From Clostridia bacterium (GTDB lineage: Bacteria; Bacillota; Clostridia; TANB77; CAG-508), in NCBI GenBank assembly GCA_017437145.1, contig JAFSBT010000008.1, positions 273,893 to 337,892 of the forward strand: a stretch of 64,000 nt of DNA. Reading direction: 5' to 3'. The notes beneath the pieces were generated by a model. The model had not been told where the DNA came from. It ran no database searches and saw only the letters and a list, made by a program, of their open reading frames with translations. Positions 37,668 to 38,299 of the stretch are shown one piece after another. The translations under genes and the position numbers were made by a program. Position 1 is the stretch's first letter. Each line of letters opens with the position of its first letter.

Positions 37668-37739
37668 TGTAGGGACGTGCATTGCACGTCCGCTATTTAA
37701 ATATTCGATATTTTCGGACGACCAATGGTCTCTCCTACA
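37668..37739. repeat. REP doublet (two GC-rich REP units in inverted orientation, BIME-like) downstream of RAYT
   Basis: tgtagggacgtgcattgcacgtccg ... cggacgaccaatggtctctcctaca separated by 22 nt AT-rich spacer. Confidence 0.75.
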
Positions 37740-37828
37740 CTTTTTATATAATATTAATTTTTATTTTTCAGTATAGCCATTATACATTATAATTTTACTG
37801 TTTTCAAGATGTTATGTATTAAATAATA

Positions 37829-38299
37829 TCAGTAATACCTGTCTTTATCCCAATTGGCAATATTATTTATAATATATTCTTTTATTTTTAGATATTCTTT
37901 TTCATTTCTTATGATATGTTCGTAAAATGATTTCTGCCATATAGACTTCTTTAACTCTTTTGTTACAATACCTTTAAATTGTTGGATAATTTTAGATATT
38001 GTATTATCAATTTTTTTATCTATAATTAAAATTAAATGTACATGATTTGGCATCACAACATATTCATCTATAAGCACATTTGAATAAATATTTTTCATAC
38101 TATTTATGTATTTGTCTACTATATATCCTTCTAAAGTTAAAACGGACGTGCAATGCACGCCCCTACAATTATTTTTACATGTTATCTTTGACAATATACA
38201 TTCTCTATTCTTTGTGCATATTGTTATAAAATAATATCCTTCTTGAGAATAATCATATTCTTTTAATCTAATATCTTTTCTGGAGGTTAATTCTTTCAT
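37829..38299 (-). mobile_element. REP-associated tyrosine transposase (RAYT, IS200/IS605 TnpA-like, COG1943)
   Basis: 156 aa; YDYSQEGYYFITICTKNR N-terminal motif, HuH motif VVMPNHVHLILII, catalytic-Tyr region WQKSFYEHIIRNEKEYLKIKEYIINNIANW; flanked by REP units; a REP unit lies inside its 5' coding region. Confidence 0.8.
38143..38167. repeat. REP unit embedded in-frame within the RAYT coding sequence
   Basis: cggacgtgcaatgcacgcccctaca encodes residues ..NNCRGVHCTSV.. of the RAYT ORF; GC-rich patch in otherwise AT-rich gene. Confidence 0.6.

What the first reader, a model, noticed from the sequence alone, without database searches (positions are those of the whole stretch)
37668..38299. RAYT (REP-associated tyrosine transposase) gene with a REP unit embedded in-frame in its own coding sequence
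The 156-aa ORF has the full RAYT signature: YDYSQEGYYFITICTKNR, HuH motif MPNHVHLILII, and WQKSFYEHIIRNEKEYLKIKEYIINN. A REP doublet lies 90 bp downstream. A 25-nt GC-rich REP unit at 38143-38167 sits inside the gene with no stop. It encodes ..NNCRGVHCTSV.. roughly where RAYTs have the conserved ...GEIxxGxMxLNxxGxIV... segment. A REP insertion into its own transposase that keeps the frame is unusual. It could mark a recently inactivated or domesticated RAYT.
Basis: partly seen in the sequence, partly recalled or inferred. Interest (0 to 1): 0.55.

Follow-up and report, generated by a model that had tools for sequence, protein, structure and literature searches.

The report
RAYT gene carrying its own REP hairpin
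A small REP-associated transposase gene really does carry one of its own REP DNA hairpins in frame, but this is a conserved, co-evolving part of how this gene family is built (seen in dozens of relatives and already noted in the literature for this subclass), not a recent insertion that killed the gene.

Summary
The ORF at 37829-38299 (-) encodes a 156-aa HUH/Y1 RAYT. It belongs to TnpA_REP subclass 2.4, which is RAYT group 4. A GTAG-tagged 8-bp hairpin at 38143-38167 encodes C45-S52. It is 24/25 identical to the outer unit of the downstream REP doublet.

The stretch is an insertion at a beta-hairpin tip relative to canonical family members. It is neither recent nor inactivating:
- dN/dS is 0.12-0.35 and the catalytic motifs are intact.
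- About 56 of 85 related loci carry a sense-strand GTAG hairpin at the same spot.
- Stems differ between loci by compensatory changes, and two reading frames are used.
- REP codons differ non-synonymously (76 vs 7).

Across loci the left REP is always sense-oriented and lies either upstream or in this loop. The right REP is always antisense and lies either in the HuH-Y loop or downstream. The two REPs of a locus match each other. Where a matching upstream REP exists, the in-ORF copy has decayed.

I conclude it is the left arm of the REPtron's inverted REP pair, moved into the ORF.

In-frame REPs in subclass 2.4 genes were reported by Quentin et al. 2018. The insertion site and these regularities appear to be new.

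The parts
37829..38299 (-). RAYT / TnpA_REP gene of subclass 2.4 (group 4); 156 aa, stop codon included
   Evidence: ORF listed. Pfam Y1_Tnp scores 30 bits against a cut-off of 23. The only PDB sequence hit is 4ER8, E. coli TnpA_REP, at 1.2e-9, and 4ER8 is also the top Foldseek hit. dN/dS is 0.12-0.35.
38143..38167 (-). In-ORF REP unit on the sense strand. GTAG foot at 38166-38163; 8-bp stem with one G.T wobble and a 3-nt loop at 38162-38144; trailing G. Encodes C45-S52. Proposed left arm of the REPtron's inverted REP pair.
   Evidence: Compensatory covariation at the same site in relatives.
37668..37692 (+). REP-A, a perfect 8-bp hairpin with GTAG on the strand opposite to the gene. It is the right arm of the pair and is 24/25 identical to the in-ORF unit.
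37715..37739 (-). REP-B, a decayed REP unit (TGTAGGAGAGACCATTGGTCGTCCG) in sense orientation. With REP-A it forms a GTAG-outside doublet, like a REPIN.
   Evidence: Weak fold of -3.6 kcal/mol. Not found by the hairpin scan.
38036..38044 (-). HuH motif codons H86-V87-H88
   Evidence: Read from the sequence. H86 and H88 are invariant in alignment A1.
37874..37876 (-). Codon of Y142, in the YIINN motif. It aligns with the Y of YIYINP in 4ER8, which I take from memory to be the catalytic Tyr115.
   Evidence: HMM alignment to 4er8_A. Y142 is nearly invariant in A1. Matches the Y motif YIxNNP of subclass 2.4.

Best explanation
The gene encodes an intact REP-associated tyrosine transposase of TnpA_REP subclass 2.4 (RAYT group 4).

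In a classical REPtron the gene sits between two inverted GTAG-tagged REP hairpins, with the GTAG feet pointing outward. Here the left REP has been internalised. It sits in frame in the loop of a beta-hairpin between strand beta1 and the first long helix. The right REP is the outer unit of the doublet downstream of the stop.

What is maintained is the nucleic-acid element: the GTAG foot plus a G/C-rich stem on the sense DNA strand. The encoded 8-residue peptide is a passenger in a permissive surface loop.

**Shown here**
- The hairpin covaries.
- Its orientation is fixed.
- It matches its right-hand partner within each locus.
- It decays by point mutation in lineages that have a matching REP just upstream of the gene.

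**Inferred**
- The RAYT needs a matched, inverted REP pair in cis.
- That pair would act as its own single-stranded-DNA recognition or cleavage sites. The two REPs may pair with each other as a REPIN-like long hairpin that encloses most of the gene.
- The in-ORF copy is renewed by RAYT-mediated insertion of REPs into or next to the resident REP. This would explain both the concerted evolution and the switches of reading frame.
For: **Family membership.**

**Same site in relatives.** A GTAG foot plus a 7-10-bp GC hairpin lies 48-85 nt after the YF codon in 56 of 85 mapped loci (52 without an upstream REP, 4 with one). It is always on the sense strand; there are no antisense cases.

**Covariation.**

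| Alignment | Cells paired | Double-change cells (observed vs shuffled) | Shuffles reaching observed |
|---|---|---|---|
| A2 | 97.8% | 24 vs 6.3 | 0/500 |
| A3 | 91.7% | 37 vs 10.2 | 0/500 |

Slid-register controls pair only about 40-50% of cells.

**Reading frames.** The same DNA element is read as CRGxHxxS in the window clade and as VGxxxxxP in most other loci.

**Codon changes.** In the 8 REP codons of 9 relatives there are 76 non-synonymous and 7 synonymous differences. The rest of the gene has dN/dS of 0.12-0.35 at dS of 0.7-1.45.

**Position of the two REPs** (85 loci).

| REP | In ORF only | Outside only | Both | Neither | Fisher p |
|---|---|---|---|---|---|
| Left (in ORF vs within 140 nt upstream) | 52 | 18 | 4 | 11 | 1e-7 |
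| Right (HuH-Y loop vs downstream) | 57 | 18 | 8 | 2 | 2e-10 |

**Matching within a locus.** Left and right REPs are 0.91 identical within a locus and 0.69 between loci (permutation p < 5e-4). There are 54 distinct stem types.

**Relics.** Several lineages combine a matching upstream REP with a length-preserving, point-mutated relic in the ORF. These are L087 and L091 (98% clade), L090, L066 (sister to L010/L022 at 81%), L072, L036 and L068.

**Strand asymmetry.** The G.T wobble is on the GTAG strand in both left and right REPs.

**Turnover.**
- Compared with L094, L093 shows a new REP nested inside the old in-ORF REP. It adds 21 nt and the frame is kept.
- L084 has a decayed and an intact REP 27 nt apart.

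**Structure.** In the AlphaFold model the peptide lies at the low-confidence tip (residues 42-49) of a beta-hairpin formed by 37-41 and 50-54.

**Long-range pairing.** A fold of the 526-nt sense strand pairs the in-ORF REP with REP-A (z = -7.2).
Against: - No experiment shows that this RAYT binds or cuts the in-ORF hairpin.
- The loci are not phylogenetically independent and the protein tree is poorly resolved, so the Fisher tests overstate significance.
- Four loci have both an intact in-ORF REP and an upstream REP. In three of them the upstream REP has a different stem type.
- The hairpin scan required a GTAG foot and at most one mismatch, so borderline copies such as L007, L017 and L044 were scored as absent.
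- Most loci come from MAG or metagenome assemblies. The nested-REP example rests on one 907-nt contig.
- The insertion-free 149-aa relatives nested near the window clade mean the site was either gained more than once or lost precisely. I cannot tell which.
- The biological role of REPs that flank RAYT genes is unknown in the field, so 'needed in cis' remains an inference.
Confidence: 0.65

Rival explanations
1. The insertion is tolerated and selfish, with no function. REPs hop locally because the RAYT acts near its own gene, and they survive only in the two loops where an in-frame insertion does no harm. The hairpin persists because REPs are themselves targets for new REP insertions, so the site keeps being refreshed.
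For: - REP-in-REP and tandem REPs occur at this site in L093 and L084.
- In-frame REPs in other genes, and in subclass 2.4 genes, are regarded as harmless loop insertions (PMC6006769; PMC3733652).
- Both sites are loops in the model.
Against: - Orientation is strict: sense at the left site and antisense at the right site, about 56 and 65 loci respectively. The antisense orientation has no stop codon in any frame, so coding constraints do not explain this.
- There is usually exactly one REP per site.
- Decay is seen specifically where a matching upstream REP is present.
- The other roughly 11 REPs in the window are all extragenic.
Confidence: 0.2
2. It is an RNA-level regulator. The hairpin in the RAYT mRNA acts as an intragenic attenuator or terminator, a ribosome roadblock or an RNase site, and keeps transposase expression low.
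For: - In the window the hairpin is followed by GTTTTAACTT and is the only terminator-like site in 1 kb, against 0.1 expected.
- The G.T wobble would be a G.U pair in RNA.
- IS200 is known to limit tnpA expression with mRNA structure (own knowledge; cited in PMC3733652).
Against: - The T-tract is absent in close relatives L086, L088 and L092, and in all GC-richer loci, where A-rich sequence follows the hairpin.
- The element appears replaceable by a REP that lies upstream of a promoter-like TTGAAA-17/18-TATAAT in L087 and L090. Such a REP would not be in the RAYT mRNA (weak evidence).
- The right-hand partner carries the same foot and wobble asymmetry on the antisense strand.
- There is no Rfam match.
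Confidence: 0.1
3. One reading: a recent REP insertion that inactivated or is degrading the RAYT gene.
For: - The NCBIfam RAYT model aligns only residues 74-146 and scores below its cut-off, 65 against 80 bits.
- The in-ORF copy is nearly identical to a nearby REP.
Against: - The ORF is intact with all catalytic motifs.
- dN/dS is 0.12-0.35 at saturating dS.
- The same in-frame REP occurs in relatives that are 60-72% identical and sit in different genomic neighbourhoods.
- The model folds confidently around the insert.
Confidence: 0.03
4. The stretch is kept for its peptide, for example a Cys/His metal-binding knuckle (C-x4-C-x4-HC).
For: TCKNNCRGVHC contains three Cys and one His. CRGxHC recurs in 23 of 114 close homologues.
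Against: - The residues change in step with stem base pairs: V/T, E/S and D/S together with H-C to H-W.
- Most relatives read the element in another frame, as VG....P, with no Cys.
- Synonymous changes are rare and non-synonymous changes are common.
- Relics lose the Cys and His residues.
Confidence: 0.02

Closest known systems
TnpA_REP subclass 2.4 (RAYT group 4) with REPs inserted in frame in the tnpA_REP gene (Quentin, Siguier, Chandler & Fichant 2018, BMC Genomics 19:475, PMC6006769)
   Same: - The motifs match: NHVH, WQ and YIxNN.
- The REP type is the same: a GTAG foot with three G-C pairs at the stem bottom. A double-foot REP is also present in the window.
- REPs lie inside the gene without breaking the frame.
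- The insertions are regarded as sitting in peripheral loops.
   Different: [quoted passage not shown] The window's REP is N-terminal of HuH, at a beta-hairpin tip after beta1.
- In the text I could read, the paper does not report the fixed orientations, the either/or relation with flanking REPs, the left-right matching, covariation, two reading frames or relic decay. Its Figure S10 is an image I could not inspect.
- The paper's taxa were mainly Cyanobacteria and Bacteroidetes. These loci are mostly Clostridia MAGs.
Classical REPtron: E. coli tnpA_REP flanked by REP/BIME (Ton-Hoang 2012, PMC3333891; structure 4ER8, Messing 2012, PMC3479197)
   Same: - A HUH/Y1 nuclease. 4ER8 is the best structural hit and the only PDB sequence hit.
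- GTAG-tagged hairpins with an imperfect stem.
- A gene bracketed by inverted REPs.
   Different: - The E. coli enzyme is subclass 2.2, with DHLH, WE and YIHYNP motifs.
- Its REPs are strictly outside the gene and it is described as 'always flanked by REP/BIME'. Here the left bracket lies inside the ORF, and in most relatives both brackets do.
In-frame palindromic elements in other protein genes: Rickettsia palindromic elements and intragenic REPs in recB and similar genes (Di Nocera 2013, PMC3733652; RPE from own knowledge)
   Same: Short palindromic repeats are inserted in frame into coding sequence and tolerated in loops.
   Different: Those are insertions into unrelated host genes and play no role for the repeat's own enzyme. 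Here the host gene is the cognate transposase, the site and orientation are fixed, and the copy substitutes for a flanking REP.
IS200/IS605 insertion sequences (LE and RE subterminal hairpins recognised by TnpA)
   Same: - The catalytic fold is the same.
- The gene is bracketed by hairpins that the enzyme recognises as single-stranded DNA.
   Different: - IS hairpins are on the same strand and lie outside the gene, and the elements are multicopy and mobile.
- Here the feet are on opposite strands, the left hairpin excludes the gene's 5' end from the bracket, and the IS200 model scores 22.6 bits against a cut-off of 55.

Membership tests
RAYT / TnpA_REP (HUH-Y1, class 2) | IS200-like HUH/Y1 nuclease fold | tested here: met
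   Pfam PF01797 scores 30 bits against a cut-off of 23. The AlphaFold model has pLDDT 82.8. The top Foldseek hit is 4ER8_A at E = 1.7e-7. The only PDB profile hit is 4er8 at 1.2e-9.
RAYT / TnpA_REP (HUH-Y1, class 2) | HuH motif and catalytic tyrosine present | tested here: met
   H86 and H88 are invariant, and W121, Q122 and Y142 are conserved in A1. Y142 aligns with the first Y of YIYINP in 4ER8.
RAYT / TnpA_REP (HUH-Y1, class 2) | Passes NCBIfam REP_Tyr_transpos (NF047646) equivalog cut-off | tested here: not met
   The score is 65.3 bits against a cut-off of 80, and only residues 74-146 align. The N-terminal third, which carries the extra beta-hairpin and the REP insert, does not fit that model.
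RAYT / TnpA_REP (HUH-Y1, class 2) | Gene associated with inverted GTAG-tagged REP hairpins | tested here: met
   The sense-strand REP lies at 38143-38167 and the antisense REP-A at 37668-37692. They are 24/25 identical. The left REP lies inside the ORF rather than upstream of it.
RAYT / TnpA_REP (HUH-Y1, class 2) | Single copy per genome, vertically inherited | not testable with these tools
   There is one copy in the 64-kb window and the whole genome was not available. Relatives sit in unrelated neighbourhoods.
RAYT / TnpA_REP (HUH-Y1, class 2) | Sequence- and structure-specific cleavage of REP single-stranded DNA | not testable with these tools
   This needs biochemistry.
TnpA_Y1 subclass 2.4 (Quentin 2018) = RAYT group 4 (Bertels 2017) | Key motifs NH[IFV]H, WQ, YIxNNP | tested here: met
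   The window protein has NHVH, WQ and YIINNI. Most relatives in A1 have P, or V, where the window has I.
TnpA_Y1 subclass 2.4 (Quentin 2018) = RAYT group 4 (Bertels 2017) | Long canonical REPs with three G-C pairs at the stem bottom, or double-foot REPs | tested here: met
   GTAG-GGG...CCC units occur throughout the window. A double-foot unit lies at 20610-20637. Double-foot units occur in the cyanobacterial, CPR and Nitrospirae relatives.
TnpA_Y1 subclass 2.4 (Quentin 2018) = RAYT group 4 (Bertels 2017) | [quoted passage not shown] | tested here: inconclusive
   An in-frame REP is present. In the window it lies before HuH, at the beta1-helix loop, and the HuH-Y loop carries no insert. Of 85 relatives, 65 carry an antisense REP in the HuH-Y loop.
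IS200/IS605 insertion sequence | Passes the IS200 transposase model; end hairpins on one strand outside the gene; multicopy | tested here: not met
   NF033573 scores 22.6 bits against a cut-off of 55. The REP feet are on opposite strands and one lies inside the ORF.
Intrinsic terminator / attenuator | GC hairpin followed by a U-tract, conserved among orthologues | tested here: not met
   The window copy fits the pattern. The T-tract is missing in L086, L088 and L092, and in GC-richer relatives.

The most novel reading that the evidence does not exclude
RAYTs of this subclass require a matched, orientation-fixed inverted REP pair in cis. The position of the pair is flexible: upstream of the promoter or in the beta1 loop on the left, and in the HuH-Y loop or downstream on the right. 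In most Clostridia members the whole REPtron has therefore been internalised into the ORF. The pair would be kept homogeneous by RAYT-mediated insertion of REPs into REPs. If so, the gene carries its own substrate, or 'seed REPIN', inside its coding sequence. That would give a direct handle on what flanking REPs do for a RAYT.
Probability: 0.4. Interest if true: 0.6.

Novelty: new variant of a known kind. Interest (0 to 1): 0.42.

Why it matters
What the REPs flanking every RAYT gene are for is still unknown. These data show four things:
- The left REP can sit in the coding sequence.
- It keeps its foot, its strand and its match to the right-hand partner while the peptide it encodes drifts.
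- It decays once a matching upstream copy exists.
- It is therefore a selected cis element acting at the DNA level, not debris.

This makes a simple experiment possible: recode eight codons and see what breaks. The data also give a rule for annotating these genes. Their odd CRGxHCxS and VGxxxxxP peptide segments, and their failure to reach the NCBIfam cut-off, come from embedded REPs.

For the window itself the verdict is sobering. This is an ordinary, intact member of a family in which embedded REPs are already documented.

Tried and rejected
1. **Recent inactivating insertion.** Rejected by conservation across relatives, dN/dS and intact motifs.
2. **Conserved peptide or Cys/His knuckle.** Rejected by the two reading frames, compensatory non-synonymous changes and relic decay.
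3. **Known RNA family.** Rfam gives only sub-threshold chance hits: RT-17 at 23 bits against 40, and FourU at 19.5 against 60.
4. **Conserved intragenic terminator.** Only the window copy and a few AT-rich relatives have the T-tract.
5. **Stop codons as the cause of the orientation bias.** Rejected. The antisense orientation (…CCCCTAC) is stop-free in all frames, while the observed sense orientation loses one frame to TAG (read directly from the sequence).
6. **One gain versus several.** The NJ tree has deep bootstrap values of 0-30%, so this stays unresolved. A first tree attempt timed out.
7. **Whether Quentin et al. already drew this site.** I tried to read their Figure S10, but only the legend is held as text.
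8. **Promoter between the upstream REP and the ATG.** Found at 11/12 in L087 and L090 but not in L091. Chance expectation is 0.5-0.9 per region, so this is weak support only.
9. **Local hairpins versus long-range REP-REP pairing.** The thermodynamic fold favours the long-range stem. This cannot separate the two, because each REP is itself a palindrome.
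Full report
**1. Observation**

On the coding strand, 38167..38143 reads TGTAGGGGCGTGCATTGCACGTCCG and encodes C45-R-G-V-H-C-T-S52. This matches TGTAGGGACGTGCATTGCACGTCCG at 37668-37692 (+) at 24 of 25 positions. Shuffled sequence gives no such matches, and the two copies form a 26-nt, 96% complementary inverted repeat.

The second unit of the downstream doublet, at 37715-37739, starts 89 nt after the stop and is a decayed copy. As single-stranded DNA the units fold as follows:

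| Unit | Folding energy (kcal/mol) |
|---|---|
| In-ORF unit, sense strand | -7.1 |
| In-ORF unit, antisense strand (the G.T wobble becomes an A.C mismatch) | -5.5 |
| REP-A | -9.7 |
| REP-B | -3.6 |

A scan for GTAG followed by a GC hairpin finds about 12 such units of at least seven stem types in the 64-kb window. All except this one lie outside credible genes.

**2. What the protein is**

- Pfam Y1_Tnp is above its cut-off.
- The NCBIfam RAYT model aligns only residues 74-146 and stays below its cut-off, 65 against 80 bits. The IS200 model is far below its cut-off.
- A profile of the family hits a single PDB sequence, E. coli TnpA_REP 4ER8, at 1.2e-9.
- The AlphaFold model (pLDDT 82.8) has 4ER8 as its best structural match, ahead of the IS608 and ISDra2 transposases.
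- The motifs NHVH, WQ and YIINN match subclass 2.4 of Quentin et al. 2018 (NH[IFV]H, WQ, YIxNNP), which equals RAYT group 4 of Bertels et al..

**3. An insertion, but an old, shared and nucleic-acid-level one**

Canonical relatives from cyanobacteria, CPR and Nitrospirae read FGEIxxGEMxLNxxG at this position. The closest insertion-free relatives, 149-150 aa long, read KIIEDNIKLTKEG. The window protein therefore has about 7 extra residues.

Many homologues that are 60-72% identical, from unrelated metagenomes, have CRGEHCSS, CRGVHCTS or CRGDHWSS at exactly this place. At the DNA level these are GTAGGGGCG-AGC/TGC/ACC-ATT-GCT/GCA/GGT-CGTCC, so the stem pairs change together.

In 80 genome loci fetched with the family profile, a hairpin scan that did not require GTAG found a 7-10-bp GC stem at the same gene position in most Clostridia loci. 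It is almost always preceded by GTAG.

Formal pair counts on non-redundant in-ORF REPs:

| Alignment | Cells paired | Double-change cells (observed vs shuffled) | Shuffles reaching observed |
|---|---|---|---|
| A2 | 97.8% | 24 vs 6.3 | 0/500 |
| A3 | 91.7% | 37 vs 10.2 | 0/500 |

Slid-register controls pair only about 40-50% of cells.

The element is read in two frames. It is TGT-AGG-GG. (CRG...) in the window clade, L004 and L031, and GTA-GGG (VG.....P) elsewhere.

In the eight REP codons of nine CRG-frame genes there are 76 non-synonymous and only 7 synonymous codon differences. The genes as a whole show dN/dS of 0.12-0.35 with dS of 0.7-1.45. Selection therefore acts on the hairpin, not on the peptide, and the gene is not decaying.

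**4. Architecture across 85 loci**

I anchored every GTAG hairpin to the protein motifs. The pattern is very regular.

- The left REP always has its GTAG on the sense strand. It lies either within about 140 nt upstream of the start or in the beta1-to-HuH interval, 48-85 nt after the YF codon.
- The right REP always has its GTAG on the antisense strand. It lies either 27-81 nt after the HuH codons, which is the site described by Quentin et al., or just downstream of the stop.
- No antisense REP occurs at the left site. Sense-strand hits at the right site are double-foot palindromic units (L050, L052, L054, L067, L071, L079), an overlapping call in L015, and extra sense-strand units in L068 and L076.

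Counts:

| REP | In ORF only | Outside only | Both | Neither | Fisher p |
|---|---|---|---|---|---|
| Left | 52 | 18 | 4 | 11 | 1e-7 |
| Right | 57 | 18 | 8 | 2 | 2e-10 |

These tests are not corrected for shared ancestry.

Forty-eight loci have both REPs inside the ORF. The window clade has the left REP inside and the right REP outside.

Within a locus the two REPs are 0.91 identical on average, against 0.69 between loci (permutation p < 5e-4). There are 54 different stem types.

Stop codons cannot explain the orientation rule. The unused antisense orientation is stop-free in all three frames.

**5. Relics show that the in-ORF and upstream copies are alternatives**

| Locus (protein) | Identity to window protein | Upstream REP | State of the in-ORF REP |
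|---|---|---|---|
| L091 (P0002) | 72% | Matching REP 84 nt upstream | Same-length mutated relic: TGTGGGAATATGAATTGCACATCTG against the window's TGTAGGGGCGTGCATTGCACGTCCG |
| L087 (P0015) | 70% | Matching REP 85 nt upstream | Same-length, point-mutated relic |
| L090 (P0012) | 65% | Matching REP 84 nt upstream | Same-length, point-mutated relic |
| L092 | | None | Intact |

- L066, with an upstream REP and a relic, is sister to L010/L022, which have intact in-ORF REPs (81% bootstrap).
- L072, L036 and L068 show the same combination of upstream REP and relic.
- In three of the four loci that have both an upstream REP and an intact in-ORF REP, the upstream REP has a different stem type.
- In L087 and L090 a promoter-like TTGAAA-17/18-TATAAT lies between the upstream REP and the start codon. 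None reached the threshold in L091. This weakly suggests that the substituting REP is not part of the RAYT mRNA.
- The G.T wobble sits on the GTAG strand in both left and right REPs. This again points to single-stranded DNA rather than the RAYT transcript.

**6. Turnover**

- L093 differs from its near-identical relative L094 by a new REP in the VG frame, nested inside the old CRG-frame REP. It adds 21 nt and the ORF is preserved.
- L084 has a decayed and an intact REP 27 nt apart.

Insertion of REPs into or next to resident REPs would explain the frame switches and the concerted evolution of the pair. The first example rests on one short contig.

**7. Structure**

In the model, beta1 is residues 22-29. 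A beta-hairpin formed by 37-41 and 50-54 carries the REP-encoded residues at its low-confidence tip, 42-49. The second family-wide insertion site corresponds to the loop at 94-100 between the HuH strand and the next helix. Both sites are loops, which fits the view that these are tolerated positions.

**8. Mechanism**

The best-supported reading is that the in-ORF REP is the left arm of the REPtron's inverted REP pair. It is kept as a DNA element and is interchangeable with an upstream copy.

What the pair does is an inference. The most likely role is as cis recognition or cleavage sites for the RAYT on single-stranded DNA. A thermodynamic fold of the 526-nt sense strand pairs the in-ORF REP with REP-A in a stem of about 27 bp that encloses most of the gene (z = -7.2). 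That is a REPIN-like structure, but it cannot be separated from two local hairpins by sequence alone.

The rivals are:
- a tolerated selfish insertion that is kept fresh by re-insertion;
- an mRNA attenuator (the window copy looks terminator-like, but the T-tract is not conserved);
- a recent inactivation;
- a functional peptide.

The last two are contradicted by the data.

**9. Comparison with the literature**

- Di Nocera et al. (2013) describe intragenic REPs in other genes.
- Ton-Hoang et al. (2012) describe tnpA_REP as always flanked by REP/BIME.
- In that paper's main text and in three further full-text searches, I found no description of the following: the beta1-loop site, the fixed orientations, the either/or relation with flanking REPs, the left-right matching, the covariation, or the relics. 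I could not view Figure S10 of the 2018 paper.

**10. Verdict**

The finding is real. Its central claim, a REP in frame in its own transposase gene, is a documented property of this subclass. The suggested meaning, recent inactivation, is wrong. The window gene is an intact, ordinary member of the subclass. The comparative regularities found on the way are a modest extension that may be new. Their main value is that they make the role of RAYT-flanking REPs testable.

**Caveats**
- Most loci come from MAG or metagenome assemblies.
- The loci are phylogenetically non-independent.
- The tree is poorly resolved.
- The hairpin scanner uses fixed thresholds.
- There are no experimental data.

Noticed in passing
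window 2325-2383, 15298-15320, 20610-20637, 26544-26568, 28194-28216, 31886-31934, 41920-41942: About 11 further GTAG-tagged GC hairpins (REPs) of at least 7 stem types, all extragenic. Two are GTAG-outside doublets (2325/2361 and 31886/31911). One is a fully palindromic 'double-foot' unit (20610-20637). GTAGGGGCGACCATTGGTCGTCC occurs twice. Only one RAYT gene lies in the window, so recognition probably depends on the foot and stem base rather than on the stem sequence.
   Followed up: partly
window 37779-37807 (- strand): A promoter-like site, TTGAAA-17-TATAAT (11/12), lies between the RAYT stop and the REP doublet. If it is used, the doublet at 37668-37739 would sit in the 5' leader of the release-factor-1-like gene at 36565-37620 (-).
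   Followed up: no
window 38144-38162 plus tail (- strand): The in-ORF REP followed by GTTTTAACTT is the only intrinsic-terminator-like site in this 1-kb stretch, against 0.1 expected. The T-tract comes from the V-L-T codons and is not conserved in relatives.
   Followed up: yes
L093 (gene 116-772) versus L094 (gene 66-560): These are two near-identical RAYT genes. L093 has a second REP in a different reading frame, nested inside the older in-ORF REP. It adds 21 nt and the ORF stays open. L093 also has an antisense REP about 80 nt before the likely true start, which the gene caller read through.
   Followed up: partly
L084 gene 267-758, nt about +118 to +170: A decayed REP (GTAGGTGTGATGATTTGTCTTC) sits directly upstream of an intact REP. 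They are 27 nt apart and in the same frame, giving ECRCDDLSSRCRGEHCSS.
   Followed up: partly
L088 (gene 3001-3540) and L038 (gene 3992-5281): In L088 the ORF reads through the right-hand REP, which adds a C-terminal tail (GRLIAAPT...). In L038 a 430-aa ORF carries four or more REP units: two in the HuH-Y loop and others in a long tail. Embedded REPs can therefore accumulate.
   Followed up: no
L050, L052, L054, L067, L071, L079 (HuH-Y interval): Canonical FGEIxxGEMxLN-type relatives from CPR, Nitrospirae, Ignavibacteriae and Calditrichales carry a double-foot palindromic REP (GTAG...CTAC) in frame between HuH and Y. This is the arrangement described by Quentin et al. 2018.
   Followed up: partly
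window 7293-14435 (- strand): A very long ORF of 2380 aa. It was not examined.
   Followed up: no
window 38361-40229 (- strand): A 622-aa ORF lies immediately upstream of the RAYT, 61 nt away. It has a P-loop (GDNEAGKTT) and long coiled-coil-like stretches, so it resembles SbcC/Rad50. No promoter-like site was found in the short gap, so the RAYT may be co-transcribed with it.
   Followed up: no
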